From a virus (lineage: Duplodnaviria > Caudoviricetes): a stretch of 64,000 bases of DNA. This document shows, piece by piece, positions 13,016 through 62,112 of the stretch. Within the stretch, counting starts at the first letter, position 1, and every line of letters begins with the position of its first letter. The DNA is taken from the IMG/VR virus record IMGVR_UViG_3300050121_000298, positions 615-64,614 of that record; one strand, 5' to 3'. The notes under the pieces are model-generated. The model did not search any database. It had not been told where the DNA came from and was given only the letters and a program-made list of their open reading frames with translations. A program made the position numbers and the translations under genes.

Positions 13016-13020
13016 TTAAG

Positions 13021-15453: not shown

Positions 15454-15454
15454 A

Positions 15455-17071: not shown

Positions 17072-17085
17072 AATCATCTAAAAAG

Positions 17086-17126: not shown

Positions 17127-17154
17127 ATCTTTGTCACACTTAATACTATACATT

Positions 17155-17560: not shown

Positions 17561-18094
17561 TTATTTAAACAAGCCCTTGATATATCCTATCGGGTTAAAG
17601 CCTTTGATCTGAATCCATACGAAGACACCAACAGCAACGACAGTAAAGACAATGAAGAATATCCACATGAATCTCTTAGGGTCTTTAGCCACATCGGTCA
17701 CGGTGTTTGTATTTGAATCAGTAGTCCTGGCGGTCTTATTGAATAAAGTAGAATCTGTTTTTGTTATACCTTTAACCTCTGTGTTCTTGGTGATAGTAGT
17801 AGTCTTAACAGATTTTATATTCCCGGCAAAACTATTACCTGCAACCATTGCTTTGGTATTAGGTGCTACCAAGGAGTCCCCCTTTTTCATAGGAGGATAA
17901 TATTGCACTTCAACTACCTGTATAGTGTTATCATTTGTCTTGGTAGTGTCGATACTTGTCTGTACCTGTTTAGTCTGTTCTGTCTTTACAGCCTCTACTA
18001 CATGTGAGGCAGTTGTCACTTTAGTCAATGGTTTACAAGAGAGTAAAACACATGCTAATAGTGATAATAATAACGATAGGATTATTCTTTTCAT
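17561..18094 (-). CDS. Lipoprotein with C-terminal TM helix; putative unimolecular spanin
   Basis: Signal peptide II MKRIILSLLLSLLACVLLSC, T-rich periplasmic region, C-terminal TM FMWIFFIVFTVVAVGVFVWI. Confidence 0.65.
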   Translation of the reverse strand: MKRIILSLLLSLLACVLLSCKPLTKVTTASHVVEAVKTEQTKQVQTSIDTTKTNDNTIQVVEVQYYPPMKKGDSLVAPNTKAMVAGNSFAGNIKSVKTTTITKNTEVKGITKTDSTLFNKTARTTDSNTNTVTDVAKDPKRFMWIFFIVFTVVAVGVFVWIQIKGFNPIGYIKGLFK

Positions 18095-18360
18095 CGTGGT
18101 ATAAATTTCTTAATGTTTTCTACTACTGTATCGGGAGAGAATAAGAATAACGCTCCGATAGTAATACCTATGACAGCATCCGCCCAGGTAGTTGTAGCTT
18201 TTATGAAGATGGACCCGACAGAAGCCAGGATGATAACAAAACCGATAATTGAAGTAATAGGACTGGCTTTGATGTTTTTAAACGTGAACAACATAGTTGT
18301 AGACACGGTTACGACAGCAGGTTTATCTGAAGTGATGTCGTTGTTTTCGTTGGTTTCCAT
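18091..18360 (-). CDS. Putative holin (2 TM helices)
   Basis: Two hydrophobic helices, short, basic C-terminus, adjacent to the spanin candidate. Confidence 0.6.
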   Translation of the reverse strand: METNENNDITSDKPAVVTVSTTMLFTFKNIKASPITSIIGFVIILASVGSIFIKATTTWADAVIGITIGALFLFSPDTVVENIKKFIPR

Positions 18361-18363
18361 ATT

Positions 18364-18675
18364 TTATTTGTTTATTTGTGTCTCGACTTTGGCTATGGCT
18401 ACGTTACATACGTTGACTTCTTTAGAGATCACGTCTAGTTTGTCAAAAAGTTTATCAAAGAGTTTAGTTTGTGCATCTGTCAATTTAGCCTGCGTTTCAG
18501 CATGATCCGTTTTGTATTCTTTGAATCGTAATTCATTGGCTATTATGGTGGCATTTGCTGCGATCAGGTTCGCTTCCAACACATTAACCTTACTATTGAT
18601 CTTTACCCAACCTGTAATAAGCAATGTTATATTACCGGTGAATAACCCTGACAATATCATGCTGAGTGGTTCCAT
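18364..18675 (-). CDS. Membrane-anchored coiled-coil protein of the lysis cluster
   Basis: N-terminal hydrophobic helix plus heptad-like region. Confidence 0.55.
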   Translation of the reverse strand: MEPLSMILSGLFTGNITLLITGWVKINSKVNVLEANLIAANATIIANELRFKEYKTDHAETQAKLTDAQTKLFDKLFDKLDVISKEVNVCNVAIAKVETQINK

Positions 18676-18923
18676 TACTTCTTCCCTCCCTGTGTTCCAA
18701 TCATTTCGGTATTGGCTCTGACCACTTTCATCATCTGAAAGGTATTTTCAGTGTTGATCGAGTCATTACGTTTGAGTACTTCCAGGGTCTTAGAGTTATC
18801 ATTCAGAGTAGTCTTCATATCTGAGATCAGGTTGTATATGCCAAAGATGATAAAGATACCGGTGATGACATATCCAACATAAGAGAGGTAACGGAGACGA
18901 TTAAGCGTCTTGAGTTTGTCCAT
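18675..18923 (-). CDS. Small single-TM protein of the lysis cluster
   Basis: YLSYVGYVITGIFIIFGIYNLI TM helix; 1-bp overlap with the next gene. Confidence 0.55.
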   Translation of the reverse strand: MDKLKTLNRLRYLSYVGYVITGIFIIFGIYNLISDMKTTLNDNSKTLEVLKRNDSINTENTFQMMKVVRANTEMIGTQGGKK

Positions 18924-19135
18924 CTAACAAGAATATAACGGAAGATCTATAAATATAGAACTTTATCCTACTTATAAGATACGTATAATTACTAATGTAA
19001 ACAACTACAAAATGACATAAGACCAGTCTATCAGACTATTTTCAATAATGTCTACAAAAAATAATTCAAAATATCTGTTGTGTCTTGGGTTTTAATTGTA
19101 GACCTTTGTCCTCTTCGCGCATATTTTCTAAGTCC

Positions 19136-19555
19136 ATGAACCTGCACACTACACAACAACTACGATACGACATAATGAGTCGTCCTCTTAAAGTGTTACT
19201 CACTAAACAGGATCTGATTAAAGTGATAGTGGCAGAAGTCGAGACAGAATACGGTTACTCTGTTGATCTCTCAAATCGTAGAAAAGAAAACATACTTCTG
19301 GTACACCTTATCTATTATATAGTACGGTACAAGTTCTCTCAATACAAAATTACCTGTGAAGAATTAAGTCAGGTCTTTAATCGAAGTACATCTAATATCG
19401 TCTTAGCATGTAAGTCTATTCAGAACGCTATTGACACAGAACCTCTCTTTAAAGAAAAAGTCAATAACATCAAACGTCATATTCAGGAGTCCTTGGATAT
19501 GAGAACATCAATTATAAAGACAGAGTTTCTGACATTTCACATACATCTAAACTAA
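19136..19555 (+). CDS. DnaA domain IV-like DNA-binding protein
   Basis: RRKENILLVHLIYY...EELSQVFNRSTSNIVLACKSIQNAIDTEPLFKEKV parallels the DnaA C-terminal HTH (R.....R...MY...IG..F.RDHTTV.HA..KI); start uncertain. Confidence 0.65.
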   Translation: MNLHTTQQLRYDIMSRPLKVLLTKQDLIKVIVAEVETEYGYSVDLSNRRKENILLVHLIYYIVRYKFSQYKITCEELSQVFNRSTSNIVLACKSIQNAIDTEPLFKEKVNNIKRHIQESLDMRTSIIKTEFLTFHIHLN

Positions 19556-19591
19556 TACATCGAGAACTAAAACCTTTAACACCCTCATAAC

Positions 19592-20218: not shown

Positions 20219-20222
20219 AAAG

Positions 20223-20262
20223 AAAAAACAGCGCAGATGCTTTATGTCTACGCTGTTTTTTT
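20223..20262. terminator. Bidirectional terminator
   Basis: AAAAAACAGCGCAGA...TCTACGCTGTTTTTT between convergent genes. Confidence 0.75.
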
Positions 20263-20287
20263 TACCTATTAGTTTCGAACTACTTCG

Positions 20288-20875
20288 TTACTCTGTGATT
20301 ATTAAGGCACATGCCTTAAAGATATCACGTAAGTTATCGGTGATCTCTTCTTCCACCTCATCCGTCTTGACTACAGCAGCGCTGACAGTCTTGTACCCGG
20401 CTCTGATGTCTTTCAGGGCGATCTTGTGCAGAGTGTATTCTTCTGCAGGTACAGTACATTCTTCATCCAGCCACTTCTGATACGCTTTGATATCATCTTC
20501 ACGTTTCTGAATCTCTTTCTTGAACTTCTCACGAACCTCGGTTCTGACTTTTTTGGCTTCTACAGAGTTAGGATCGAAGTCCATCGTCTCCTGTTCACCA
20601 GCCTTGGTACTTTGTACGTTTGTCTTACCACCTGCCAATAACTTGTAAGCGTCTTTTAAACTCTCTTGATACTTGATGAAACCGTCTTCAAAAGGAATTA
20701 TCTTGTCTGCAACGAAGGCCTCTACATGAGACTTAAGTAGTGTTCTGGTATGGTTGATGGCATAGTTGAGTTTGATACCTTGTGCCTTCTGCACATTTTT
20801 GAGATCATAGTCTAACTGCAAGATCTCTCTACGTGTCAGACGTTCTCTTTTTACTATTACTGCTGGTTTAAGCAT
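20288..20875 (-). CDS. Hypothetical phage protein
   Basis: 195-aa charged helical ORF downstream of the tail fibre gene. Confidence 0.65.
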   Translation of the reverse strand: MLKPAVIVKRERLTRREILQLDYDLKNVQKAQGIKLNYAINHTRTLLKSHVEAFVADKIIPFEDGFIKYQESLKDAYKLLAGGKTNVQSTKAGEQETMDFDPNSVEAKKVRTEVREKFKKEIQKREDDIKAYQKWLDEECTVPAEEYTLHKIALKDIRAGYKTVSAAVVKTDEVEEEITDNLRDIFKACALIITE

Positions 20876-21019
20876 AGATTATAAAAGGTTGGTGTAAATG
20901 TTAGGAGTTTAAATGTTCATCGTATATATAAGGTAGTGAATAGTATTAACATATCCAAATCAAAGTGTAAACTTGTGTTCGGTAACATTACACAAGTTTA
21001 CAGGTTTTGTACCTCATGA

Positions 21020-23710
21020 TTATAATGAATAGTCAAATTGAATAGAAAACGATACCTGATCTCCTGCGGATGTTGATTTATATGTAAAATACATTAGAGC
21101 ATATCCACTTGTTCTTGATACGCTAACAGATGGATTTGGGTTACTGTTATTTATATTTATCAGAGACCCAACCCCTAATAGTACTCCTGTTTGACTAACG
21201 GTTGATACAAATGGCAGGTCAATTGCCAGTGAGGTGTCAGTATTTGCAGATGAAGCAACGACAGTTCCGTCTACTTGACAATGAACAATATTACCCACCC
21301 TTATATACGAGGCACTTTCTATCCAATGTGCAGATGTATTAGCAATATCTATAGCATTTGGAGTATATGATCCGCTTGAAACAACAGGCAGAGTACCTAG
21401 ACTTCCATCTGCCATTAGCGCCTGAGTCGAAGTACCACCTGGTATTTTAAATGAAGTCGCACTTATATTACCATCTACAGTAATATCCCCCATATTAAAG
21501 TTATAAACAAATCTACTAGGTGCATAAAGCCAATCAACGGTAAAACCGTTACTTGCAAGATAAATACCTACTCTAAATATCTTACGATTATCTAAAGCAT
21601 CTCCACCTACAGCATTAAAACCATAAGTAGAAGATGTATCGTTATTAAGTGTGCCAACATCAAGAGAACTTACACCTGGTGCAGCATTAAATGATGTATA
21701 ACCTGTTACTACTCCACCAGTAAGAGGAAGATAACCAGATGCTGTTGCATAATAACTACCGTGTTGACCATCTAATAAGTCAACATTGAGGTTAATTACC
21801 TTAACAGTGCTATTGACTAAAAAGGGAGCGATTAAATATGAATTATCAAATAAAAGACTTTTTACTGTGACGTCCCCTTCAAATTCTGCGGGCCCACTAA
21901 TCCATAGTGAAGCACTTTGAGGTGATACTAATTGATTCTGAATATATGTTCCTGTGTGGACGTGATCGTTTCTACTGACACTCGTTGCCGATCCACTTGT
22001 CCCCAATCCTGTGATAAGGTTAAAAGAGGTTCCAGTAATATTACTGGAGACAGCAAGTGTCCCTGCGATGTTGACAGTAGTTGTATTAAACTTGATAACC
22101 TCGGATGCACCTACCTTGAAGATAAGTTTTCCTTGCGAGATGTCGAAGTTCAGACTCGCCTTATCTCCTAAAGGACCGAAGCCGTAATAAGGAACAGAAG
22201 AATGAGTTGCCATAAATCCTGCACCATAGACTACACCACCGGCATAGATGTTCTTGATAGCACCTATTCCTCCTGCAGTCTTTATAGATCCTTGGTTATA
22301 TAAATCCGACTGAGTAGTATCAGTAATGTATATCGCTGTGGCAGTAGTATTTCCTCTCCCTGTAACTGTAGCCAGAGTATCGGTACTGGCATAAGTAGGA
22401 ATGTTAAGGACATTACCTGATAAGGAAGCCACTCCTGTCCCTACCGTAGTGAGAGAGGTGATCCTGTTAATGTATGCTATATCCCCGAAGTCACCTCTGT
22501 ATGCAGTAGAAGATAATATACCTAACGCAAGACTATCACTGACAATGGCATATACCGTACCACTCCAACGGTATGTTTTATTGGTTGTGGTATCGATATA
22601 AATCTTCCCGGATTCGGGAGAGTAGGCTGCCCCTAAAAGATTATTAAAGGTTGTAGTACTAACCCAAGTACCATCCAGTACGTCATCGACATAAGAAGGT
22701 AACTGTGTGTTTTTTACGAAGCCACTTGCATCAAGTTCAGCTAATCCGTTTACAGCACCCTTTAAACTTATCTCTAGTTTGTTACCCAATGCAGTACCAA
22801 GTCCTATAACATCTGTTATGATATGAGAGTGTATAATAGGTGCATAGATAAGTGAGTGGTCGTGATCTCCGTATGCTGCCAGGTCATGCGTCAAACCGAA
22901 TCCCGGAAAGGACACTTTATTTGTCCATGAAAGAATACTAGCAGAACTGATACCAAAAGCGGGTGAGGCTACAAAGATAGGGTCTGTCTCTTCTGTAAGA
23001 TAACCCGGATCGTTTTCAAACTGACTGAGCAATGTCGGTGTACCGTCTATCTCACTGTAAGTATATTCGGGTTTGGTGACATTTTTAGCCCAGTCATATA
23101 CGTCATTGGCATTACGGGCATCACTGAGTCTACTGTCTATGGTAATTACGTATTCGCTCAGGTCAGGTTCCCATGTATCGGGTCTGTAAGCGAGTGCGGG
23201 GATATCAGAAGCAAGTAGATCACTGACACCAGTGATTAATCCCTTGGAATCGTAGTTAAGTTTGATACCTATTCCCGGATCAATAAGGCCGTTGGCTATT
23301 ACATATTCCGTATCATCAAAAGAGAGATCTTCTCCGTTAACCTTAACAAACCCTATTCCTGACAGGATAACCTGATGTTCTTCTTGAGAGTGATCATAGG
23401 CCGTCTTTCCCCTGTCACCACGGTATGCGGTAGTCTCGGTTTCTCCCAGTATGAGTTTACTGTCGTTGATGGCTTGAATACAAGCCTTTATCTTAGAGAA
23501 AGCGGTGATGACGGTATCTTCTGTTATTACAGGAGAGCATTCCACATCAGATAATCCCTGCAGGGTTCTGTCGAGGACGACGTCGTGATCGATATCAGCG
23601 AGGACACGAAGATTACCCTCAAAGAAATAATATTTTACAAACCCTTCATCTACGGTAGAGGGTTTCTTGGTGAGTAACGGGAGTTGTAATACAGATATAA
23701 GACCAGGCAT
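21020..23710 (-). CDS. Tail fibre/tail spike (receptor-binding) protein
   Basis: G/T/S-rich with fibre motifs TAYRGD.G (x2), ETDPIF, HSHIITDV.GL, LPSYVDDV, NLNVDLLDGQHGSYY, YLPLTGG; C-terminal YIRVGNIVH domain. Confidence 0.8.
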   Translation of the reverse strand: MPGLISVLQLPLLTKKPSTVDEGFVKYYFFEGNLRVLADIDHDVVLDRTLQGLSDVECSPVITEDTVITAFSKIKACIQAINDSKLILGETETTAYRGDRGKTAYDHSQEEHQVILSGIGFVKVNGEDLSFDDTEYVIANGLIDPGIGIKLNYDSKGLITGVSDLLASDIPALAYRPDTWEPDLSEYVITIDSRLSDARNANDVYDWAKNVTKPEYTYSEIDGTPTLLSQFENDPGYLTEETDPIFVASPAFGISSASILSWTNKVSFPGFGLTHDLAAYGDHDHSLIYAPIIHSHIITDVIGLGTALGNKLEISLKGAVNGLAELDASGFVKNTQLPSYVDDVLDGTWVSTTTFNNLLGAAYSPESGKIYIDTTTNKTYRWSGTVYAIVSDSLALGILSSTAYRGDFGDIAYINRITSLTTVGTGVASLSGNVLNIPTYASTDTLATVTGRGNTTATAIYITDTTQSDLYNQGSIKTAGGIGAIKNIYAGGVVYGAGFMATHSSVPYYGFGPLGDKASLNFDISQGKLIFKVGASEVIKFNTTTVNIAGTLAVSSNITGTSFNLITGLGTSGSATSVSRNDHVHTGTYIQNQLVSPQSASLWISGPAEFEGDVTVKSLLFDNSYLIAPFLVNSTVKVINLNVDLLDGQHGSYYATASGYLPLTGGVVTGYTSFNAAPGVSSLDVGTLNNDTSSTYGFNAVGGDALDNRKIFRVGIYLASNGFTVDWLYAPSRFVYNFNMGDITVDGNISATSFKIPGGTSTQALMADGSLGTLPVVSSGSYTPNAIDIANTSAHWIESASYIRVGNIVHCQVDGTVVASSANTDTSLAIDLPFVSTVSQTGVLLGVGSLININNSNPNPSVSVSRTSGYALMYFTYKSTSAGDQVSFSIQFDYSL

Positions 23711-23763
23711 ACGTCTAGGGTGTTAACTATACATTACAATTTAACGAATAATTCCCGTATATC

Positions 23764-24474
23764 CTAAACTTCTCTCTCTCTTAACAGGGTATAGGTAAAT
23801 AAATTACCGGTACTTTGTTTGTAGTACTGACAGATAAGTAGCATCTTAGCCAGATCAGCACCGTACTGATACACCTGACAACCGGCTGACCACTTGTCTA
23901 TGATGTTACTAAAAGGGATATTGCTGTGATGAATGTCTACCCCAAAGTATCCTTCTTCTATCACTCCCTGTTCATCTGCATATTTGTCCAGGTCTTTATC
24001 ACGATAGACTTTTATCTTACCACCCGTCTGTATAAGAGCATAATGTCCCGGCTTGTGATAACCCAACTGATAGGATTTATATTGACCCGGCACCATGACG
24101 GCACATCCCGAAGCATTCATAGGAGACTGAAGATAGAATACTCCGGGAAGAGTAGTGGAGACACTGGTCATGATACGAAGTGTTCCTACTGTCTTATGAT
24201 ACTGATCCAAGGCAAAGAGTGTATTAGGGCCCTTCTGACCATCAACAGAGAGAGGTTTGTTGTCTTTACCTACGTATTGAAAGCTATTCAGTGCCTCTTG
24301 TAAGACCGAGAGGTTATCCTCTGGTAAAACGGGTTGTTTATACACGATGGAGATCGTGTCATTGAACTTATTGGGAACAACACTGGTACTCCTAACACCA
24401 ATTATGTTAGGAGCATTATCATAAAACTGATATCCGTTTTTTATCACGGCATTCTTTAAAGTCTCTGCTGTCAT
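23764..24474 (-). CDS. Putative endolysin (YkuD/L,D-transpeptidase-like fold) with inserted peptidoglycan-binding domain
   Basis: GVDIH...WSAGCQV His/Cys motif; LQEALN...LSVDGQKGPNTLFAL resembles PG_binding_1. Confidence 0.65.
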   Translation of the reverse strand: MTAETLKNAVIKNGYQFYDNAPNIIGVRSTSVVPNKFNDTISIVYKQPVLPEDNLSVLQEALNSFQYVGKDNKPLSVDGQKGPNTLFALDQYHKTVGTLRIMTSVSTTLPGVFYLQSPMNASGCAVMVPGQYKSYQLGYHKPGHYALIQTGGKIKVYRDKDLDKYADEQGVIEEGYFGVDIHHSNIPFSNIIDKWSAGCQVYQYGADLAKMLLICQYYKQSTGNLFTYTLLREREV

Positions 24475-24475
24475 G

Positions 24476-31297: not shown

Positions 31298-31312
31298 CTA
31301 TAGTGGTTTTTA

Positions 31313-42523: not shown

Positions 42524-42537
42524 AAGTGAAATATTGG

Positions 42538-47802: not shown

Positions 47803-47828
47803 AAAACAAGTATTTTAGTAGGATTATC

Positions 47829-50447: not shown

Positions 50448-50449
50448 GA

Positions 50450-53206: not shown

Positions 53207-53287
53207 AACTTTCTAAAGGTTAAATGTTACAAGTCTATAGTTATAGAGTTTCCCCTACTTAAATTTACAAAATTTATTTGATATTAC

Positions 53288-53911: not shown

Positions 53912-56900
53912 TATCTAGGACTTTGTAATTGTTTCGTAACAAACATTTTCAGTAACATCTTAACGTTGTTACTGACTGTCTTCCTGAGCCATACAAAGTT
54001 CGTATAGTGACGGAACTTCTTACGCTGCGAGACAGGTTTCTTATAGTTGATGAATCTAGGGTTGATCGTCTTAGTGTATCCGTTCTCATCTGTGTTCCAC
54101 ATCGGGAAAGTATTGGGGACGAACTCACCATAGTTCTCAGAGATGTCATCGAACTGATTGAAGCGATACTTTTCCTCTTCTAAAGAATACAGGATGTCTG
54201 TCCCGTTGACGTCAGAGGATTTAGTCAGCATCTTACCTGGTAAATTTTTAGGCTTACAGGATAGTCTGAGAACACCTGAGTTCTGTATAGTGTTATAGAT
54301 GATACTCCTATCAAAATTATAGTCAGGCACGATCATCTTATCGCGACCTTCGTTTTTGTAGATGAAGTTCTCAAGCATGTATTCCACACTTCTCAGTGTG
54401 TTGATGTCTAGTCCTGTCCCTGAAGGTATCTCTACCTCGAAAGGATAGTCTTTACCATAGAAGTTACAGAACAAGTCTGTACGGACATTGTGTCTCCACA
54501 GTTTGTTGTCTTTGATCGTGATGAAGTGTGCAGGTGAATGCATCACCAGTCCCGGAACCCAGTCATGATATGCCAGCCACATAGAACTCTTTGCATCGTA
54601 ACTTACGGTCCAACTACAGTCTTGGAAATAAACAGGATCTCCCAGTTCTACTTTCAGGTTATCATGATGAACCGTGATAGGTTTAGGATGAAAAGTGGTG
54701 ATGATAGGATCTTGTGGAACATAGGTGATAATAGGATCCTGTGGTGTAACCACGACAATGGGATCTTGCGGGATATAAATAGTTACAGGATCACCTTGAT
54801 CTATAGTAACAATAGGAGCATCACTTTGGACACGTGAACAGGAAGGAGCAGTACAGTCAGCATTTACCGACTGCGTATATCCTGTAGGACAGGTGTATTC
54901 TGTAACCCCTATCTCTGTCTGGCCACGGGTAGTAAACAACACTGTGAGATCTGCATAAGAAGTAGCTGCAGCAATCTCCAAGGCTGTGTTGTCATATATC
55001 TCGGCTGCAAAACAAGCCACAAGTCCCTCATTGTAACCCTCTACTTTTAACAGGTGTGACCCTGCAGAGAGTAGTACCGGATAGATGTGAAGCATCTTAA
55101 AGGTGATCGTGGTATCAGAAGAGGAGTGATTGGCTTGCATAGCCAGAGAATCAGAGCTAAACAGTAAACTACCATCCAAGGTGACACGAAATCTATTATC
55201 TGCTGCCAGAGCTATATATACCGTTTTCTCTTCGGCCAAACAGATAGAGGTAGTAAAACCTATCCATGTTAGGTCAGGGGCATCTACACCCCATATTGAG
55301 AGACGATTAACAGGTCCATTATCTTCTCCACTTTTCCAAAAGAGATTCGTAGGATTGATCATCACATAATCACCAGTTCCGTTTGACAGATACGTGTTAT
55401 AGATAGCAGTACCGTAAGTTCCGTAAGCGGAAAATTTAACAGCCATCACAGTAGTTTTGGTGGCCTCGGACGTAGGATCAGAATACATTGTCTTTACACA
55501 CATGTCATCCTTCAACTCGTAACCTGAATTACATGAGAGTACATTAAAGGGATTTGGGTAAGTAATCTCTTCTATTGGAGGTACTTCTATGGTAGTAATA
55601 ACATCAGCAACCGGGGTAACAACCTTCTTATTGGGACGAGTTACTTTGGTAATGATATCTGCAGGTTGTATGATAGTGTCAGGATCAGACGTCTTGATAT
55701 AGAACCCGATCTCAGGGTCATAGAGAACACCAGGTTTAACCTTGAAGTCACGTTTGGAGAAATATACAATATCATATGTAGGATCGTATACCGTCTGACA
55801 ACCAACACCCATGACAGGATTATCGGGATATTTGTAGTCCGGGAACTGAGTAAGTAACCTACTGGGTAGATACTTCTCAAACCAGTACTTCATACCCTGT
55901 TCACTGATGTCTTTGAAACCACCTTGAAACTGAAATATCTTCTTATTCTCCTGAGAGATGTAGAATAGACCCATAGGAGTATTGACGGCACTAAACTTAC
56001 TCTGACAACTGCCTACATGAAATTCTTCTTCGGCATTAGAGAGTGACTGCAGGGACTGTTGAAAGAGTCCACCGTCACCGATAGTGATCTTGGTACCTGC
56101 ATCTGTCTTTAAGGTATCATTGCCTATGAAAGACATAGGGTCTTCTTTCTCAAATAAGATGATAGCGCCACCACTGGGTAAGGACTTCATAGAAGTAACT
56201 ATCCCTTTGAAGTCAAAGTAGTTATTAGCCAGGTAAATCTTCCAGTTGTCTTTACGCAGTCCGGCCACCTGTCTAAGTGAGTACACGGCACGTGTAGGAA
56301 AATACGACTGAAACGACTTAGGGTCGGCAGGGTCGAAATATTTAGGAAGTGGTGTGGCGAAAGAGATGTAGTTACTAAAGAGTTTACTGATACTCAGACT
56401 CTCGTCATATTTACAGTAGTTTCCTCTGGTGATTAGGTCACTGCGAAACATCATAGAGATGTCTCTGTTGTTATCTGCATAGTGTTTCTGATACTGTTCC
56501 AGACCCTGCTCACGGAAAGCCAGGTTCATGTCACTCTCGACAAAGAAATCCCGTACCCCGTTACAGGTAAGGTAGAAGTAAGCATTCTTGACAAAGAAGA
56601 GTCCCGAGTTGCTACCCCTGTCAAAGTGATGCATGTTGGCAGGACTGTTGATAGAGATAGGACTCTTAAGAGAGAACTTTAGTTTTATACTCAGATCTCC
56701 CATGTCGAACTTGTCTAAGTCCGCCCAGTATCTAGGGTATGGACCGTTGATATAGTTCTTGTAGTTGAACTCTGTGTCGTCTACCTCTCCCGAAAGCCAT
56801 GTGTTAAAGAACATATAAGGGTTCTTCTCGGTATAACGGTTGATGTAAACGTCACCACCAAAGAGAGTTCCAGTAGAATATAGTTTCGTGTCGGGGTTGG

Positions 56901-59643
56901 TAGGAAATACCTTTGGAGAAACCGGTATCTGAATGATGTTATCCAGTTGTCCATACTGATTTGCATATGCCAGTTTCAAAGCGCCATAGTAGGCGCTGGT
57001 CTGAGTGATGACTTCGTTGTGAGTAGGTTCAGCATAGTTGCCCATGTCAGCCAGTCTCACACGAGAGTTGTCTTGCGTGTCGGGTTCTACGATGTCACCA
57101 TCTACGTGAAGAGCAACATATTCCCCTCTGAAAAGGTTGTTGACCCGGTAGTCACCGTCAAAATCCTGTAGGAAAGAGTTGATGTATTTCCCTGTCTTCA
57201 CTGTCCTGCGGGTATTGTCTTGTGTTACGGGAGAGAAGTATTTATAGAAACCATGAGCATTGTACTGCAGGGCATATTGCCTAAGAGGCCCGAAAGAATA
57301 GATCGTGTCCAGAGTAGTACTTAATCCCAATGCTCCGTAGTAGACAGCACCAGCAGCAGCCATAGCGATACCGGCTAAAGTAGTCATAGGTGTTTGAACG
57401 ATAGCATTTATAGTATCACCTATAGCTGAGGCTGTTCCCGCTTCTCTCGAAGAAGATGAAGTCTTATCAGCTCCCGCAAAAATGATACTCGCTTTAGCTG
57501 TGTATGAACCTGTTGTAGTAGTCTTCCCAATGGCCGAAATGATCGCTACTCCTGTTCCGATAACACAAGCAAACACGAAACTAGTGTCTGTGATAACACG
57601 GTGCTTCGGATGCTTGTATGGGAACTCGAACTTACCTACTACCTCACCTATTTCTTCTGTATAAAGTTTCACACTACAAGCAGAGAGATATGGCTTCTTA
57701 AAGGTCGTATCAGGAGAGTGAAAAGAGTAGTAGTCTTTCTTATACATCTCAGGTGCTTCGTCTTCATTACCGTTACCGTCACCACCCCTGGATAAAGTAT
57801 TTCTCAGGAGTTTATTTGGTCTAAGGTCATTAAAGGGGAAGTTCTGATAAAGTCCTTTACGTCCTGTTTTCGTAGTAGTTAAAGAGTCAGAACCTGTTGT
57901 GACAAGATTAGATACTTCTTGTGCGGTCCGCTCGGTAGGATTTTCTGTGCCAGTATTCTTTGTTGCAGCACTCTGTAAGCTGGCATCAAGTTCTTTGGTG
58001 AAGTCATAAGGATCTGCGATAGAACCGTCTTCGTTATGGTCTATAATGTCATATTCCCAAAGGTTGTTAAACATACCCTTTGCGATGATAGACTTGTTTC
58101 CCTCACGTGAACCACGTAGTATCTCATAGCCTATGATATCTTTTCGAGGGTCACCGTTCTGATCAAGAGGGTGAGTGATACCTGAGAATTCTACACCCAA
58201 TATAATGATGTTATTACCACCCTGATCGTGAATATGTGTCATGGCGTTATCCGGAAATTTATGATGACGGATATTTTTACCACAGTTCTCTCCCCATATC
58301 AGAGGTTCATCATCCGGGTATCTCTCACTCGATTCCCAATAGGACATATTCCCTCTTGCGATAATCGTACCTCCGTCATCTAAAAGTCCGTTGGCCGAGA
58401 CTCTAGTAGCGGTGTTGTAAGACTGCCACTGTTTGTTTTCATCAGGCAACACGTCTTTTCCGTATACATGAGAGAGATCGCTCCCTACAGCCTTTCTACC
58501 TGTTATATGAAATGAGGCACTTACCTGCGCCGTATTGTGAATCCACTTTATAGAGAATGCGTATACTTCATCGCGCATATAGGAAGGATTATTTCCTCCA
58601 TTGACATAGTAGTCTTGAGGGTAACTCACGGCCACCCATTTTGCCGTGATCTTATTGGCTTGTGGCTGGTAGTTAAAGTCGGGATGAGAGGTGACACCGG
58701 TACGGATAAGATACCCGTTGATGTTATAGATACCGTCACTCTTAGGATATACACTCGAAGCCACAAAGATCTGTTCCAGTGGAACGGTGATCCATGCCTG
58801 ATCGATATAACCTATGTTTACTTTTGTCTGTCTGGTAGAATAGAAACCTATCCTTCTAGCAACGGTCTGGTTGTTGATGACAGAGATGATGACAAGTTCA
58901 AACTCCTGATAGGTACTATCTATCTGATAGATGTCGATATCCAACGCTCCACCACCATTTTGCTCTGACCATAGAGGTTGAACATTGCTCAGGTTATAGT
59001 AGTCCGTGGCACGGATGCCATCGACACTATATGCCATAATAGCCTGATAACTACCGTTAAGTAGTTGACCTGTGCCTTTAGACTTGCTAACAAAGCATAC
59101 TGGAGTCACCACGTTACCTTGAAGTTTGATCTTCTCTGTGTCGAGGGTATTGGTATATTCGGGGACAAAACACGAGGGATCAGAAGAGAGATTCTTACCG
59201 GTTGTCATATAGGGGATCTCGTCAAGGTTTAAGAACCTGTCGGGATTGTTTCCATCTTGCCAGTAGACAGAATAAGAACCGTCCTGATTTCTTCTTGAGA
59301 CACCGGTGATTAAATATTTTGCGGAGAAGTTTAGTCCTTTATCGTTTATAACTTTCTGATAGGTATCCAGTTTCTCACTGAATATTCCTATCTCACTGCC
59401 CGTCTCATTACAAGAGAATACGATCCACTCGTTGTTGATCTTCTGCACTACTCCCATGACGGTATAATCCAGTGTGGCGATCAGGGTGTTGGCCTGTTCA
59501 TTACCCAGATCACCATAGTCTCCGTTATGACTTCTGTTGATTGCATTACGGGCATGTGTCCAGCATCCTTCGGATATCCCATAAGAGTCTATATCTTTCA
59601 CCATGCCCTTAGTGAACATGTTTACATTATCTTGTTTAGTCAT
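53911..59643 (-). CDS. Tail stabilisation (muzzle) protein
   Basis: 1910 aa beta-rich; F.KGM.KD, YWQDG.NP.R.LN, YMRDEVYAF, YWES.E.YP, IRHHKFP, FGGDVYI, WTVSY; position after ring proteins as in crAss-like tails. Confidence 0.82.
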   Translation of the reverse strand: MTKQDNVNMFTKGMVKDIDSYGISEGCWTHARNAINRSHNGDYGDLGNEQANTLIATLDYTVMGVVQKINNEWIVFSCNETGSEIGIFSEKLDTYQKVINDKGLNFSAKYLITGVSRRNQDGSYSVYWQDGNNPDRFLNLDEIPYMTTGKNLSSDPSCFVPEYTNTLDTEKIKLQGNVVTPVCFVSKSKGTGQLLNGSYQAIMAYSVDGIRATDYYNLSNVQPLWSEQNGGGALDIDIYQIDSTYQEFELVIISVINNQTVARRIGFYSTRQTKVNIGYIDQAWITVPLEQIFVASSVYPKSDGIYNINGYLIRTGVTSHPDFNYQPQANKITAKWVAVSYPQDYYVNGGNNPSYMRDEVYAFSIKWIHNTAQVSASFHITGRKAVGSDLSHVYGKDVLPDENKQWQSYNTATRVSANGLLDDGGTIIARGNMSYWESSERYPDDEPLIWGENCGKNIRHHKFPDNAMTHIHDQGGNNIIILGVEFSGITHPLDQNGDPRKDIIGYEILRGSREGNKSIIAKGMFNNLWEYDIIDHNEDGSIADPYDFTKELDASLQSAATKNTGTENPTERTAQEVSNLVTTGSDSLTTTKTGRKGLYQNFPFNDLRPNKLLRNTLSRGGDGNGNEDEAPEMYKKDYYSFHSPDTTFKKPYLSACSVKLYTEEIGEVVGKFEFPYKHPKHRVITDTSFVFACVIGTGVAIISAIGKTTTTGSYTAKASIIFAGADKTSSSSREAGTASAIGDTINAIVQTPMTTLAGIAMAAAGAVYYGALGLSTTLDTIYSFGPLRQYALQYNAHGFYKYFSPVTQDNTRRTVKTGKYINSFLQDFDGDYRVNNLFRGEYVALHVDGDIVEPDTQDNSRVRLADMGNYAEPTHNEVITQTSAYYGALKLAYANQYGQLDNIIQIPVSPKVFPTNPDTKLYSTGTLFGGDVYINRYTEKNPYMFFNTWLSGEVDDTEFNYKNYINGPYPRYWADLDKFDMGDLSIKLKFSLKSPISINSPANMHHFDRGSNSGLFFVKNAYFYLTCNGVRDFFVESDMNLAFREQGLEQYQKHYADNNRDISMMFRSDLITRGNYCKYDESLSISKLFSNYISFATPLPKYFDPADPKSFQSYFPTRAVYSLRQVAGLRKDNWKIYLANNYFDFKGIVTSMKSLPSGGAIILFEKEDPMSFIGNDTLKTDAGTKITIGDGGLFQQSLQSLSNAEEEFHVGSCQSKFSAVNTPMGLFYISQENKKIFQFQGGFKDISEQGMKYWFEKYLPSRLLTQFPDYKYPDNPVMGVGCQTVYDPTYDIVYFSKRDFKVKPGVLYDPEIGFYIKTSDPDTIIQPADIITKVTRPNKKVVTPVADVITTIEVPPIEEITYPNPFNVLSCNSGYELKDDMCVKTMYSDPTSEATKTTVMAVKFSAYGTYGTAIYNTYLSNGTGDYVMINPTNLFWKSGEDNGPVNRLSIWGVDAPDLTWIGFTTSICLAEEKTVYIALAADNRFRVTLDGSLLFSSDSLAMQANHSSSDTTITFKMLHIYPVLLSAGSHLLKVEGYNEGLVACFAAEIYDNTALEIAAATSYADLTVLFTTRGQTEIGVTEYTCPTGYTQSVNADCTAPSCSRVQSDAPIVTIDQGDPVTIYIPQDPIVVVTPQDPIITYVPQDPIITTFHPKPITVHHDNLKVELGDPVYFQDCSWTVSYDAKSSMWLAYHDWVPGLVMHSPAHFITIKDNKLWRHNVRTDLFCNFYGKDYPFEVEIPSGTGLDINTLRSVEYMLENFIYKNEGRDKMIVPDYNFDRSIIYNTIQNSGVLRLSCKPKNLPGKMLTKSSDVNGTDILYSLEEEKYRFNQFDDISENYGEFVPNTFPMWNTDENGYTKTINPRFINYKKPVSQRKKFRHYTNFVWLRKTVSNNVKMLLKMFVTKQLQSPR

Positions 59644-60749
59644 TAGATAAACATGTTATAGTATCGGTGGTACATTGCTTTACGGTTCATCTCCTGTTTC
59701 TTCTGAAATTCCTTGAAGTCAGGTGTTCTGACAAAAGATAAGGCTGCTGTCTTGGCAGTATCAAGTTTAACCGCAATGAGTTGCATCTTGCGTTCCAGAT
59801 TGGGTTCGCCATTCAGGAACATGTTCTCAAAGATGGTGTCCTTGAATTGGTATTCATAGTAGTCGTTGACAAATTCATGATCCAGTACCAAAAGTCGTCC
59901 TCTCTCGTCTTCCATCAGAGAGACATATTCCATGTAGACTGTCCCGTCTTGGAAGTTAGCATGAAGAAAATTGTCTTTGATACTGACCGAATACTTACCA
60001 TTGACATTCAAGTTGGGACAATCGGGTAACACCTTTACGTGTCTGACAAAATTCAAAGGGACAAGTCTCTTATACCTATGTTGCTTCCGGGAGTCCGTGT
60101 ATCTTACCTCGGGATGATTAGGCGTATCAAGACTCAAATGGACAGCATTACTACCCAGTCCATCTTGTACATTACCAATGATCGTCATCTGAACATCAGA
60201 GATAGGTACCAAACCGTCATAGGTGAAGTGTATCTCGTTATCGTTAGGAGTAGTGAAGTCTGTAGTGAGAAGAGTACCACTTGAAGTCCTGAGTTGTATC
60301 ACCACATTGGTTGTCTTTAGGGTGTGTTTAACTACATTCAGTCCAGGAGAAATAGTGATTACAAGGTTTTGTTGACGCATGGTATTTTGACCCATCATGC
60401 CATAGACCAACTTGATCCCCTGTGCCACGACATTAGCCATCAGACTTCCAAAATCTTCTCTGGTATCGGTTGTCTTCACATCAGAGATATCGGTAGAACT
60501 TTTGTCGGTACATAAAACAGCAAATGAGACAGATGAGAAGTCATAAGGAAGTTTTCCTATTCCGCGATCTATCTCCACCAGTACCGTCTTACGGGGATTG
60601 ACCTTGACACCCAGTTGTCTATTGATGAACAGTGCTCTTTTGATAAGTTGCTGCGCTTCTATCTGATTCTCGACGTCTATGCCTGGCAGGTCTATCTTGA
60701 CACTATCGAGTAGTTCATCGAAGGTTCTATATTTAAGTTCTTTCTTCAT
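59643..60749 (-). CDS. Tail tubular (ring) protein
   Basis: YRTFDELL.SV..D, LPYDF, I..NF.DG.VY.EY.....DE.G.LLV.DH; adjacent to the muzzle gene. Confidence 0.7.
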   Translation of the reverse strand: MKKELKYRTFDELLDSVKIDLPGIDVENQIEAQQLIKRALFINRQLGVKVNPRKTVLVEIDRGIGKLPYDFSSVSFAVLCTDKSSTDISDVKTTDTREDFGSLMANVVAQGIKLVYGMMGQNTMRQQNLVITISPGLNVVKHTLKTTNVVIQLRTSSGTLLTTDFTTPNDNEIHFTYDGLVPISDVQMTIIGNVQDGLGSNAVHLSLDTPNHPEVRYTDSRKQHRYKRLVPLNFVRHVKVLPDCPNLNVNGKYSVSIKDNFLHANFQDGTVYMEYVSLMEDERGRLLVLDHEFVNDYYEYQFKDTIFENMFLNGEPNLERKMQLIAVKLDTAKTAALSFVRTPDFKEFQKKQEMNRKAMYHRYYNMFI

Positions 60750-60751
60750 GA

Positions 60752-61423
60752 TTATCTGAGTATGTTACGTTTATCTTCTTGTGTGTCTGTTGGGATACTG
60801 ACAAGAGGACTCATCTCATTGCGCACTTGTGTCTCGATCTCTCCTAAAAGATAATCGGGAATATTACTGGCGATGTCTAGTTTACTGAGACAGTCGTCCG
60901 TAGAGTCATCGTTAAAGTTGGTGATATCCTCATTAAAGGCAGCATCTATTCGTACCAGTTCCCATTCTATATTAGGGAAATAGAAATAACCATCTTCCCA
61001 CCAGTAGTACTTGTTCGTGTTATACTTAAAAGTCGATTGCTTGATCATCTTCTCGTAAGTACCACGTGTGATAGGGATTATCTGTGTGACGCCGTCTATT
61101 GAAGTAATACTACGTACCAAGGGACCCCAGTAGCCGGTCATCATCGTCGGGAGAATGAGAACGTTTCTTCTGATCGTGTGACCACTTGTCAGAAACGAAC
61201 AGTTCGCCTGTACCTTGTCGATCTCTTCCAGTTCTACTTTATGCAAGACCTGAAAGACGCTGTTCATCTTCATGATCTTGTTAGAGGAGTCCTGTCTGCG
61301 TATGATCCAGGCTGCGTGTTTCTTTACAATGGAGTAGATGTACCTACTTGTGAGAAAGGCGTCTTGCTTTGACCCTTTGAATGTGTTGCGTATACGGGAT
61401 ACGATTTCGCCTATCTTTGCCAT
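60752..61423 (-). CDS. Tail ring/adaptor structural protein
   Basis: IGEIVSRIRN..K....D, YYW.EDGYFYFPN, IP.D..ED; lies between IHF-like and tubular genes. Confidence 0.65.
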   Translation of the reverse strand: MAKIGEIVSRIRNTFKGSKQDAFLTSRYIYSIVKKHAAWIIRRQDSSNKIMKMNSVFQVLHKVELEEIDKVQANCSFLTSGHTIRRNVLILPTMMTGYWGPLVRSITSIDGVTQIIPITRGTYEKMIKQSTFKYNTNKYYWWEDGYFYFPNIEWELVRIDAAFNEDITNFNDDSTDDCLSKLDIASNIPDYLLGEIETQVRNEMSPLVSIPTDTQEDKRNILR

Positions 61424-61424
61424 C

Positions 61425-62000
61425 TTAGTCTAAATCAAATTCGTTATAGTTCTCTATGTTTATTTCTTTTTGATGATCAATTTGTACGAAGTTCTTACGG
61501 AACAAAGTGGACACATTCTGAATCTTGTCTAACTCTATGTATTTCTTCCACTGAGAAGGATATGTCTTAGCTACGGTACGTTTAAAGATCCTTGTGGCAG
61601 TGAGACCCCAAAGGTCACTATTGGCAAACTGATTCTTGAGTAATTTATTGACATAAAATATCTTGGCTACCCTGCCATCTGTCTCCCAGTTCTTATGTAT
61701 GATAGCACTTTCAAGTGTCTGTGACTTCTTAAAATCCAGGTTCTTATCTTCTTTGCATAATGTAGAACAGATGAAAATGTTTCCCAGTTGTACCGGGAGT
61801 TCTATGCCATCACGGTTGCCGATCACGGTATTCCAACATGTCTCGTTAAAGGTAAGAACGACTTTACGTAGTTCATCATCAGATAATACCCCTACATTTA
61901 TCCTACTACGTAACCCTGCATAATACTCTTTATTCAGTGTCGCAGTAACCACTTGTCTGTATCTTGGGGCCTTTAGATTTGGTTTTTTGGTTGTCGTCAT
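61425..62000 (-). CDS. IHF/HU-like DNA-binding protein (crAss-like)
   Basis: V..FNE..W..VI.NRDGIELP.QLG.I.I matches the IHF/HU core; ATG at 62000 preferred. Confidence 0.65.
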   Translation of the reverse strand: MTTTKKPNLKAPRYRQVVTATLNKEYYAGLRSRINVGVLSDDELRKVVLTFNETCWNTVIGNRDGIELPVQLGNIFICSTLCKEDKNLDFKKSQTLESAIIHKNWETDGRVAKIFYVNKLLKNQFANSDLWGLTATRIFKRTVAKTYPSQWKKYIELDKIQNVSTLFRKNFVQIDHQKEINIENYNEFDLD

Positions 62001-62004
62001 AAAG

Positions 62005-62025
62005 TGTAGTCTACAATAGAATTTA
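62005..62025 (-). promoter_or_regulatory. Putative promoter of the virion operon with palindromic operator
   Basis: TGTAG-T-CTACA palindrome 62005-62015; TAAATTCT on the - strand at 62018-62025. Confidence 0.5.
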
Positions 62026-62112
62026 CTAAAAAATCCCGACACTACCTATAAATAATTGTACATCACTGCTTTTTAAACACAAAAAACTGCGAATCTCATC
62101 GAGGGCATTCGT

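What the first reader, a model, noticed from the sequence alone, without database searches (positions are those of the whole stretch)
17561..62100. Head-less virion module: tail, ejection cargo, vRNAP and lysis genes but no terminase, portal or capsid
Seen: the - strand virion operon begins at the IHF-like gene with its own promoter-like box, and about 100 bp further right the DNA is a decayed histidine kinase. No ORF shows terminase, portal or major capsid features, yet about 44 kb of virion genes, including an 11-kb ORF, has no visible stop or frameshift. Established: in crAss-like phages the terminase-portal-capsid block normally lies upstream of the IHF/tail genes. Inference: (a) a satellite-like element borrowing heads from a helper while supplying its own tail, cargo and RNAP; (b) a domesticated protein-delivery or tailocin-like device; or (c) a recent deletion or rearrangement, which is the simplest explanation.
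Basis: partly seen in the sequence, partly recalled or inferred. Interest (0 to 1): 0.85.

Follow-up and report, generated by a model that had tools for sequence, protein, structure and literature searches.

The report
Half a crAss-like prophage, heads missing
This is one contiguous half (about 60 kb) of a large crAss-like temperate phage sitting in a bacterial chromosome from peat, and the head genes are missing because the whole other half of the phage genome is missing, so it is most likely a broken prophage and not a purpose-built head-less machine.

Summary
The record (an IMG/VR 'provirus', 64.6 kb, CheckV 51% complete) carries crAss-type ring 2, ring 1, muzzle, cargo-sized ORFs, a virion RNA polymerase homologue and an endolysin-like gene. 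It has no TerL, portal or MCP.

More than the head block is absent. Mapped on two complete relatives (119 and 136 kb), the window holds one contiguous arc: the replication module plus the distal virion operon. The other 56-68 kb is missing, including the integrase (present in one relative), early genes, TerL, portal, MCP and 10-34 kb of genes between MCP and ring 2.

The left end looks like an attL: a tRNA-like remnant plus a hairpin, next to host genes. The right end is a non-homologous junction with the 3' third of a histidine kinase gene. Contigs of four runs from four studies bridge it.

Best reading: a defective prophage, through deletion or replacement. 'IHF-like' is not supported.

One oddity remains. 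A second metagenome contig breaks at the same nucleotide, at the edge of a conserved promoter-like motif, with a different host-like flank. A natural head-less element, or a head block beyond the record, is therefore not excluded.

The parts
2..1492 (+). Host gene: M3 peptidase (Dcp-like); its ATG is the first base of the record, 614 bases left of the window
   Evidence: PF01432 398.7 bits; record start read
1973..2374 (-). Short frame resembling the C-terminal piece of a GH28-type glycoside hydrolase (lead only)
   Evidence: No Pfam family. Atlas feature hits 0.97-0.98 to 'GH28 (Fragment)' clusters, Bacteroidota commonest
2330..2383 (-). Hairpin followed by a T run, terminator-like, just 3' of the tRNA-like remnant
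   Evidence: Stem visible in the alignments; sequence read
2389..2449 (-). tRNA-like remnant at the left phage/host boundary (attL-like)
   Evidence: RF00005 24.6 bits, E 0.0062, below the gathering score of 29. ARAGORN at a relaxed threshold calls tRNA-Arg(ccg) at c2388-2455. ARAGORN at its default calls nothing
2668..2690 (+). Second copy of the promoter-like motif, facing inward, about 150 nt upstream of the first replication-module gene
2841..17523 (+). Replication module: HTH protein, SNF2-type helicase, UDG, DnaB-like helicase, AAA_24, primase, PD-(D/E)XK nuclease, DNA polymerase (13501-15453)
   Evidence: Pfam and PHROG hits; syntenic with G002 and G004
20288..24474 (-). Distal end of the virion operon: endolysin-like 236 aa (23764-24474), 896-aa protein with a peptidase / minor-tail-like domain, 195-aa coiled-coil protein
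24476..31297 (-). 2273-aa ORF with a PD-(D/E)XK domain, in the position of the phi14:2 RNAP-associated protein (by gene order only)
   Evidence: PF12705 25.1 bits; gene order in phi14:2
31313..42523 (-). 3736-aa virion RNA polymerase homologue
   Evidence: Motif AGSDLDIDS at residue 2632. GSD[FL]D[IV]D is invariant in the 120 aligned rows that cover it. phi14:2 g066 ('Catalytic RNA polymerase subunit') carries TGSDFDIDK at 1361. It hits G004 at E 3e-36 and G002 at 58349-59350, overlapping the place the window protein hits (57911-58624). No direct PDB, Pfam or PHROG match
42538..53911 (-). ORFs of 1754, 872, 918 and 207 aa: tail or cargo proteins by position
   Evidence: No families; homologues in the same order in G002 and G004
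53911..59643 (-). Muzzle protein, 1910 aa
   Evidence: PF25731 80.7 bits; phrog_37948 and phrog_15100; tblastn to phage structural proteins
59643..61423 (-). Ring 1-like (368 aa, weak) and ring 2 (223 aa) tail barrel proteins
   Evidence: 159 ring 2 homologues
61425..61997 (-).
   Evidence: Homologue directly upstream of ring 2 in 84 of 84 related loci; no IHF/HU likeness
62012..62033 (-). Conserved promoter-like motif TTTTTTAGTAAATTCTATTGTA. Its outer edge is where likeness to L108 stops
62034..62076 (.). About 43 nt of unassigned DNA between the phage edge and the kinase fragment. If the kinase part starts only at 62104, it is about 70 nt
62077..62367 (+). 3' fragment of a histidine kinase gene, with no start codon and no HisKA domain
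   Evidence: PF02518 profile positions 32-109 of 111. Other contigs in the same runs continue leftward as kinase coding sequence (loose ends at 62104)
62546..64000 (.). Right flank, 32% G+C: hemerythrin-like gene (+), 71-aa ORF (-), CI-repressor-like gene (-). No likeness to any related phage locus

Best explanation
The window holds a defective prophage. It is one contiguous arc of about 59.6 kb (roughly 2450-62033) of a temperate crAss-like phage whose full genome would be about 120-136 kb, lying in a bacterial chromosome (probably Bacteroidota; inferred).

Inferred history: the phage entered by integrase-mediated recombination at a tRNA gene, with its attP between the integrase gene and the first gene of the replication module. 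That left the tRNA-like remnant and the host genes at the left end. The other arc was later lost from this place: integrase, early genes, TerL, portal, MCP, and the genes between MCP and the 190-aa gene. A deletion or replacement did this. Its phage-side end lies at the edge of the promoter-like motif (62033/62034) and its host-side end lies inside a histidine kinase gene.

What remains is two convergent transcription units with intact reading frames. It has no packaging enzyme, portal or capsid, none of the genes that relatives carry upstream of the 190-aa gene, and no integrase. On its own it can neither excise nor build particles.

Shown: the gene content, the synteny, the absence of head genes from the record, and that the right junction is real. 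Inferred: the order of events, the att site, and that the loss was a deletion.
For: - The record is an IMG/VR 'provirus' with CheckV completeness 51%.
- The window's genes map as one arc on complete relatives. In G002 (119,389 b) they cover 32.5-95.5 kb. In G004 (136,320 b, terminal repeats) they run from 117.6 kb across the record's ends to 49.2 kb. The missing arcs are about 56 and 68 kb.
- PF23898 matched over its cut-off in 5 of 5 relatives, 10-34 kb upstream of ring 2. TerL and portal were found in both G002 and G004.
- None of 116 other ORFs of the G004 missing arc matches the record below E 1e-3.
- 84 of 84 related loci have the 190-aa gene before ring 2. 76 of 84 have the ~440-aa gene on the same strand just before it. 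The 5 of the other 8 that I examined also have same-strand genes there.
- G004 has a tyrosine integrase (60.6 bits) about 0.5 kb from the homologue of the window's first phage gene. The window has none.
- A tRNA-like remnant and a hairpin sit at the left boundary. Neither flank resembles any related phage locus.
- The kinase is cut at HATPase_c position 32.
- The junction is not an assembly artefact. In 4 of 4 runs laid (four studies, peat metagenomes), one contig runs from the phage side to 62152 with 0-5 differences. That is 119 bases past the junction.
- Weak support only: contig depth on the phage side is close to the depth of the flank (57 v 75, 46 v 47-48, 12-14 v 11, 6.6 v 8.1). The tool warns against reading depth this way.
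- Precedent: incomplete crAss-like (epsilon) prophages in Parabacteroides chromosomes (PMC11054128, passages).
Against: - L108, a 3.8-kb contig of another metagenome, is 97.25% identical to the window over 61743-62033. It then diverges at the same nucleotide into different AT-rich DNA with a cupin gene, a kinase-like gene and a HIRAN-domain gene.
- Homologues of that kinase-like protein lie on contigs of 1.3-4.1 Mb, so the L108 flank looks bacterial. Two unrelated flanks at one phage coordinate are not expected from random deletions.
- All large ORFs are intact, including those of 11.2, 6.8, 5.7 and 5.3 kb. The polymerase motif is also intact.
- The few differences seen lean synonymous: 4 of 5 in one run's junction contig, and 5 synonymous against 2 non-synonymous codons between L108 and the window. 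This fits a recent loss as well as selection.
- The promoter-like motif occurs exactly twice in the window, near both ends of the arc and facing inward (expected 0.04; 2 of 500 shuffles reach the score).
- The tRNA match is below Rfam's gathering score. No repeat longer than 10 nt links the two ends. The left junction was not checked with reads.
- I could not see the parent contig. An identical 3736-aa protein is on record on a 115,358-base contig, so DNA beyond the record exists and was not examined.
Confidence: 0.55

Rival explanations
1. The prophage is not deleted but interrupted or rearranged. Foreign AT-rich DNA (an island, a mobile element or a variable accessory cassette) sits just upstream of the promoter of the 190-aa gene. 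The rest of the phage, including the heads, lies beyond the right end of the record or elsewhere on the replicon.
For: - The same boundary carries two different flanks, both AT-rich (window 32%, L108 28-35% G+C) against 39-45% in the phage part. The adjacent genes are divergent in both.
- The window's flank ends with a CI-repressor-like gene.
- The record's ends are gene ends, so its right end may be a caller's boundary and not the end of phage DNA.
- The identical polymerase protein is on record on a 115,358-base contig.
- CheckV 51% fits a half genome.
Against: - 0 of the 84 related loci show a sign of an insert at this place: 76 carry the ~440-aa gene, and the 5 others I examined have same-strand genes and no drop in G+C.
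- The flank starts with a truncated host-type kinase gene, and intact versions of that gene occur in the same samples.
- No relative of the CI-like gene was found in IMG/VR.
- By my recollection of how such callers work, a provirus caller would be expected to include hallmark head genes if they lay close by.
Confidence: 0.22
2. A natural head-less element kept by selection: either a helper-dependent satellite that supplies its own replication, tail barrel, muzzle, cargo and RNA polymerase and borrows heads, or a domesticated device. Its right end is fixed at the promoter of the 190-aa gene.
For: - The boundary recurs in a second context with a bacterial-looking flank.
- About 42 kb of frames are intact.
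- The differences seen lean synonymous.
- The promoter-like motif lies near both ends of the arc.
- A variant about 92% identical to part of the muzzle gene coexists at lower depth in 3 of the 4 runs. It could be a helper, or merely a relative.
Against: - There is no integrase, no att-type repeat and no recognised transposase among the ORFs scanned.
- The two flanks are 3' pieces of two different genes, so this is not a simple insertion.
- L108 shows only 291 bases of phage, so it is unknown whether it is head-less.
- Two sequences define only one breakpoint if one of them is ancestral.
- Everything relatives encode upstream of the 190-aa gene is absent. In annotated relatives that stretch includes tail fibres.
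- Short-tailed phage tails are built on the portal of a filled head (recalled for P22).
- crAss001 cargo is stored in capsid and tail, and ejection is thought to be driven by head pressure (PMC10172136, passages).
- Known tailocins are of the contractile and flexible-tail types (search listing and abstracts).
Confidence: 0.1
3. An assembly chimera that joins a phage contig to bacterial DNA.
For: The source is a metagenome, and unitigs break at 62152 in a conserved kinase stretch where several variants meet.
Against: - Contigs of 4 of 4 runs from four studies cross the junction without a branch, for 119 bases.
- Contigs identical to the window exist on both sides at similar depth.
- Only the right junction was tested in this way.
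Confidence: 0.03

Closest known systems
crAss-like phages in the wide sense: Cellulophaga phage phi14:2 (Crassvirales), crAss001, and the marine and freshwater relatives Cellulophaga phi17:2 and phi4:1, Flavobacterium Fpv1 and the FPSV phages, Leptolyngbya Lbo-JY46
   Same: - Ring 2, ring 1 and muzzle families.
- A giant virion RNA polymerase with the DxDxD motif.
- The order ring, muzzle, large ORFs, polymerase, converging with a replication module.
- The best phage hits of the muzzle are these phages, at 23-27% identity.
   Different: - No TerL, portal or MCP in the record.
- The element is integrated next to host genes.
- The closest cultured relatives are not placed in Crassvirales in their records' taxonomy lines.
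- The nearest uncultured relatives share only 45-54% identity in ring 2.
Incomplete epsilon crAss-like prophages in Parabacteroides distasonis and P. merdae chromosomes (PMC11054128; passages seen)
   Same: crAss-like sequence fixed in a Bacteroidota chromosome and described as incomplete.
   Different: - A different lineage and habitat (gut there, peat here).
- I saw no account of which part is missing there.
Cryptic (defective) prophages in general (recalled, e.g. those of E. coli K-12)
   Same: Loss of part of the genome by deletion, truncated neighbouring genes, no integrase, and some intact genes kept.
   Different: About 60 kb with no broken frame is unusually well kept, and the break point recurs in a second contig.
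Tailocins (R- and F-type phage tail-like bacteriocins)
   Same: Tail and lysis genes without head genes in a chromosome.
   Different: - Tailocins derive from contractile or flexible long tails (abstracts). I recall none of short-tail type.
- Here a full replication module and capsid-stored cargo genes are kept.
- The genes that relatives carry upstream of the 190-aa gene, which by annotation in cultured relatives include fibres, are gone.
Phage satellites (P4, PICI, capsid-forming PICI, PLE; recalled)
   Same: A chromosomal element that lacks part of the virion genes and could depend on a helper.
   Different: Satellites are small (by my recollection roughly 5-20 kb), carry an integrase and att sites, and excise. 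This element is about 60 kb and shows neither.

Membership tests
crAss-like phage (virion module as defined by the crAss001 atlas) | Tail barrel ring proteins R1 and R2 | tested here: met
   PF25702 at 51.4 bits (cut-off 27). PF24228 at only 25.0 bits (cut-off 27), but in the conserved position.
crAss-like phage (virion module as defined by the crAss001 atlas) | Muzzle protein | tested here: met
   PF25731 at 80.7 bits on residues 6-228; virion structural PHROGs.
crAss-like phage (virion module as defined by the crAss001 atlas) | Virion-packaged giant RNA polymerase with a DxDxD centre | tested here: met
   The motif is invariant in the family and shared with phi14:2 g066. Likeness is transitive through G002 and G004. 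A profile of residues 2000-3000 gave no direct hit to g066. Packaging was not tested.
crAss-like phage (virion module as defined by the crAss001 atlas) | Crass-type major capsid protein, portal and TerL | tested here: not met
   Absent from the record. MCP is present in 5 of 5 relatives; TerL and portal are present in the 2 of 2 relatives searched.
Prophage integrated at a tRNA gene | tRNA gene or fragment at the phage/host boundary | tested here: inconclusive
   RF00005 at 24.6 bits, E 0.0062, below the gathering score of 29. ARAGORN calls it only at a relaxed threshold.
Prophage integrated at a tRNA gene | Integrase gene and direct att repeats at both ends | tested here: not met
   No PF00589 match at E<=1. 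The longest shared word between the two ends is 10 nt. The relative G004 has an integrase at the matching place.
Tailocin | A self-sufficient tail assembly set with fibres, no head genes and no replication genes | tested here: not met
   The replication module is present. The genes upstream of the 190-aa gene are absent. No sheath or tube families were seen among the Pfam and PHROG hits.
Phage satellite | Own integrase and excision, defined ends, helper-dependent packaging | tested here: inconclusive
   No integrase or att repeat. One end recurs in a second context. Packaging is not testable with these tools.

The most novel reading that the evidence does not exclude
The arc is a natural, selected unit: a roughly 60-kb head-less crAss-like element bounded by inward-facing copies of one promoter-like motif. 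It would exist in at least two chromosomal contexts with the same right end and be kept intact because it is used. One use would be as a satellite that replicates itself and supplies tail barrel, muzzle, ejected cargo and RNA polymerase while taking heads (and fibres) from a related helper phage seen in the same samples. Another would be as a reservoir that rescues superinfecting relatives by recombination.
Probability: 0.08. Interest if true: 0.85.

Novelty: new member of a known kind. Interest (0 to 1): 0.38.

Why it matters
crAss-like phages are mostly treated as non-integrating. This is a chromosomal copy in a peat bacterium with an att-like tRNA remnant, and a complete relative carries an integrase at the matching spot. 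Together they add evidence that environmental members of this group can be temperate.

The case also shows that 'virion genes without heads' in a provirus record should first be mapped on complete relatives. Here half the genome is gone, not a cassette.

The recurrent break at a conserved promoter-like motif is a concrete, cheap thing to follow up. If many copies end there, the ordinary reading fails and a new kind of helper-dependent element becomes likely.

Tried and rejected
SEARCHES THAT FOUND NOTHING OR LITTLE
- PHROGs and Pfam gave nothing for most large ORFs.
- PDB sequence searches of the 3736-, 2273- and 1754-aa ORFs gave 0 hits.
- A profile of polymerase residues 2000-3000 did not hit phi14:2 g066 or Fpv1 gp33. 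I relied on the motif and on transitive tblastn instead.
- Single-protein scans of IMG/VR with ring 2, the 190-aa protein and the CI-like protein found no close relative.
- Exact-pattern scans of IMG/VR for both motif copies found nothing.
- The first metagenome scan, with the record's right end, found nothing.
- Pfam on 10 genes that G004 has between MCP and the 190-aa gene gave only sub-threshold hits. What exactly is missing there (fibres, hubs, further rings) is therefore known only by analogy with annotated phages.
- tblastn of the two L108 flank proteins against phages gave 1 and 2 weak records, which does not decide between phage and host.

IDEAS TESTED AND DROPPED
- The idea that the two motif copies are terminal inverted repeats of a transposon-like element. 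The same motif sits upstream of the 190-aa gene inside complete relatives: 37 of 50 distinct loci by a strict pattern, and others visibly similar. No target duplication was seen by eye.
- A tRNA-like piece in the G004 spacer next to its integrase. ARAGORN at a relaxed threshold called an odd 'tRNA-SeC', but Rfam found nothing at E<=1. I do not count it.
- The sigma-70-type promoter scan near the junction is close to chance.

LIMITS OF WHAT WAS SEEN
- The host taxon could not be set. It rests on an Atlas lead and, for L108's flank only, on a homologue named from a Prolixibacteraceae MAG.
- The name HipA for PF07804, the family on record for some homologues of L108's kinase-like protein, is recalled.
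- dN/dS on the polymerase and the muzzle could not be done. The nearest other sequences are 42% identical (polymerase region) and 72% identical (ring 2), and only proteins, not their contigs, could be fetched.
- Read laying lists only part of its tables (273 pieces and 47 loose ends were not shown). The absence of a listed alternative junction at 62033 is therefore no finding.
- Not seen: the left junction in reads, the parent contig, and any RNA data.

Full report
WHAT THE RECORD IS. The window is bases 615-64614 of a single 64,614-base record that IMG/VR classes as a provirus, with a CheckV completeness of 51%. The record begins exactly at the ATG of a bacterial M3 peptidase gene and ends exactly at the start codon of a minus-strand gene, so it was cut at gene ends from something longer. 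It has no terminal repeats and no tRNA at ARAGORN's default setting.

GENE CONTENT. On the minus strand an unbroken train of ORFs runs from 62042 to 20288. In order it holds:
- a conserved 190-aa protein;
- ring 2 (PF25702, 51.4 bits);
- a ring 1-like protein (PF24228, 25.0 bits, just under the cut-off);
- the muzzle (PF25731, 80.7 bits);
- ORFs of 207, 918, 872, 1754, 3736 and 2273 aa;
- an endolysin-like gene, an 896-aa protein and a 195-aa protein.

The 3736-aa ORF has no direct database match, and a profile of its residues 2000-3000 did not hit phi14:2 g066. It does carry AGSDLDIDS at residue 2632, within a motif GSD[FL]D[IV]D that is invariant in the 120 aligned rows covering it. The phi14:2 protein annotated as the catalytic RNA polymerase subunit has TGSDFDIDK at residue 1361. 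That protein hits relatives G004 (E 3e-36) and G002 at the place where the window's protein also hits. I accept it as the virion RNA polymerase homologue. That phi14:2 gp66 was shown to be an RNA polymerase is recalled (Drobysheva et al. 2021, not read here).

On the plus strand, 2841-17523 is a replication module: helicases, UDG, AAA_24, primase, nuclease and a DNA polymerase with phrog_1252 at 1e-127. Its first 2.7 kb (17561-20287) is not part of the contiguous operon.

HEAD GENES ARE ABSENT FROM THE RECORD. PF23898 gives nothing at E<=10. Fpv1 TerL, portal and MCP give nothing below E 0.27. The ORFs of the relevant arc of a complete relative give nothing either. PF03237 also gave nothing, but that test is weak because Pfam finds no family in the Fpv1 TerL.

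WHAT IS MISSING IS HALF A GENOME. Ring 2 has 159 homologues. With their alignment I fetched 80 IMG/VR loci and 4 loci from GTDB genomes. Contigs of relatives reach 95-136 kb, and two of the five I examined have terminal repeats. All five carry the crAss capsid family, 10-34 kb upstream of ring 2.

I fetched G002 and G004 whole. The window's proteins map to them in one block: the 190-aa gene, then the virion operon, then the replication module read in the opposite direction, ending at the homologue of the window's first phage genes. The rest of those genomes, 56 kb in G002 and 68 kb in G004, has no counterpart in the record. That rest contains TerL, portal and MCP.

In 84 of 84 loci the 190-aa gene precedes ring 2. 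In 76 of 84 a ~440-aa gene precedes it on the same strand. The 5 others I examined also have same-strand genes there. In annotated cultured relatives the stretch between the capsid gene and the rings holds tail fibres and structural proteins. Pfam did not name the corresponding genes of G004.

THE TWO ENDS. Left end: reading the minus strand, a tRNA-like remnant (2389-2449; RF00005 24.6 bits, E 0.0062, below gathering; ARAGORN only at a relaxed threshold) is followed by a hairpin with a T run. Then come a GH28-like fragment (Atlas lead only) and the peptidase gene. In G004 a tyrosine integrase lies about 0.5 kb from the homologue of the window's first phage gene. Four other relatives and the window have none. 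This fits an attP next to the integrase and integration into a tRNA gene, with the integrase at the far, now absent, end. It is an inference.

Right end: 36 nt upstream of the ATG of the 190-aa gene the phage sequence stops. About 43 nt later comes the last third of a histidine kinase gene (HATPase_c positions 32-109 of 111), then a hemerythrin-like gene and a CI-repressor-like gene. This flank is 32% G+C. Neither flank resembles any related locus. No repeat longer than 10 nt links the ends.

THE JUNCTION IS REAL. Twenty runs of 17 studies hold part of 60.1-64.0 kb, and five hold at least half of its sampled words. In the four I laid (peat metagenomes, four studies), one contig each runs from the phage side to 62152 with 0, 0, 5 and 1 differences. 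All stop there, where several kinase variants meet. Other contigs in three of the runs continue leftward from 62104 as kinase coding sequence, so intact versions of the gene exist in the same communities. No second contig at 90% identity or more covers 61683-62016 in any of the four runs (depth table). Depth on the two sides is similar, which I count only as a weak hint.

THE ODDITY. A 27-base pattern from the start of the 190-aa gene found one metagenome contig, L108. It is 97.25% identical to the window over 291 bases (61743-62033). It then differs completely, from the same T run onward. Its upstream 3.5 kb is 28-35% G+C and carries divergent genes for a cupin, a kinase-like protein and a HIRAN-domain protein. 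Homologues of the kinase-like protein (52-62% identical) lie on contigs of up to 4.1 Mb, and one is named from a Prolixibacteraceae MAG. Neither L108 nor the window has the ~440-aa gene.

The shared edge is the start of a motif, TTTTTT(A)GTAAATT(C/A)T..TGTA. By a strict pattern it lies 15-33 nt upstream of the ATG of this gene in 37 of 50 distinct related loci, and in visibly similar form in most others. I read it as a promoter-like element inside the virion operon; this is untested. A second copy lies at 2668-2690, facing inward (two matches, 0.04 expected; 2 of 500 shuffles). G004 has no such second copy.

Differences between L108 and the window are 5 synonymous codons against 2 non-synonymous codons. 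The five differences in one run's junction contig are 4 synonymous and 1 not, and they are clustered in 154 nt. The numbers are too small, and the clustering suggests recombination.

WEIGHING.
- Defective prophage (0.55): explains the arc, the cut kinase, the missing integrase and the att-like left end.
- Interrupted prophage with the rest beyond the record (0.22): explains the two AT-rich flanks at one site. It has no parallel in the 84 relatives and needs a phage-borne or island-borne kinase fragment.
- Natural head-less element (0.10): best explains the recurrent end and the intact frames. It has no integrase or att repeats, has flanks from two different genes, and faces what is known of crassvirus virions. 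Cargo lies in capsid and tail and is thought to be driven out by head pressure, and fibres dock on hubs at R1/R2 (PMC10172136, passages).
- Chimera (0.03): contradicted.
- The remaining 0.10 is unassigned.

COMPARISON AND NOVELTY. The muzzle's best hits among phage records are Leptolyngbya Lbo-JY46, Cellulophaga phi17:2 and phi4:1, and Flavobacterium phages, at 23-27% identity. Their records do not place them in Crassvirales. Incomplete crAss-like prophages have been reported in Parabacteroides (PMC11054128, passages). A search for Crassvirales with prophage and integrase listed 71 papers, of which I read passages of that one only. Tailocin papers (listing and abstracts) describe contractile and flexible types. 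I found none of short-tail origin among the ten listed, which is not proof that none is in print.

I file this as a new member of a known kind, a defective prophage of a crAss-like lineage, with one unexplained feature worth a cheap follow-up.

TOOLS THAT WERE CLOSED. The listing of cluster members, the search of earlier findings, relatives for a virus record, the look-up of encoding contigs, and the paper supplements. The supplement of PMC11054128 may show which parts its prophages lack.

Noticed in passing
window 62012-62033 (-) and 2668-2690 (+); loci L005-L084 about 15-33 nt upstream of the 190-aa gene: A conserved motif, TTTTTT(A)GTAAATT(C/A)T..TGTA, lies in front of the 190-aa gene across distant relatives, in the middle of the virion operon. 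It looks like an internal promoter of this phage group. The window has a second, inward-facing copy before the replication module.
   Followed up: partly
L108 1-3542: A second context for a 97% identical copy of the 190-aa gene start: AT-rich DNA with cupin, kinase-like (PF07804 on record for some homologues) and HIRAN genes. It diverges from the window at the same nucleotide.
   Followed up: partly
G004 (L101) 49704-50819: A tyrosine integrase in a complete 136-kb crAss-like genome with terminal repeats, next to the start of the replication module. 1 of 5 relatives tested has one.
   Followed up: partly
window 58276-58750: In 3 of the 4 runs laid, a second contig about 92% identical covers a patch of the muzzle gene at a quarter to a seventh of the depth. 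A related phage or prophage coexists in the same samples.
   Followed up: no
window 62017-63352: The kinase/hemerythrin stretch has 2-3 times the contig depth of its surroundings. Variants about 91% identical occur at nearly equal depth, and several contexts break at 63113-63164. A paralogous or sister-strain locus with an intact kinase exists.
   Followed up: no
proteins P0126-P0218: Homologues of the giant polymerase in relatives carry different extra Pfam domains on record (PF00075, PF08719, PF13532, PF18760, PF25176). The ejected protein seems to be a platform for variable enzyme fusions.
   Followed up: no
L084-L087: GTDB genome bins labelled Rickettsiales, Micavibrio, Bacilli and Patescibacteria contain contigs of this phage group. 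One is a 120,283-base contig, the size of a whole phage genome. These are probably binning errors and not hosts.
   Followed up: no
window 63930-64000: A short tandem repeat (unit about 22-30 nt, ATTTGCATTATGT.AACTTATT) lies just upstream of the CI-like gene at the very end of the record. The run contigs differ from the window in the last three bases.
   Followed up: no
L004 (contig of 61,065 bases): The closest IMG/VR relative by ring 2 (54%) is also about half a genome, but there the contig simply ends 2.4 kb upstream of ring 2, with the usual ~400-aa gene present.
   Followed up: partly
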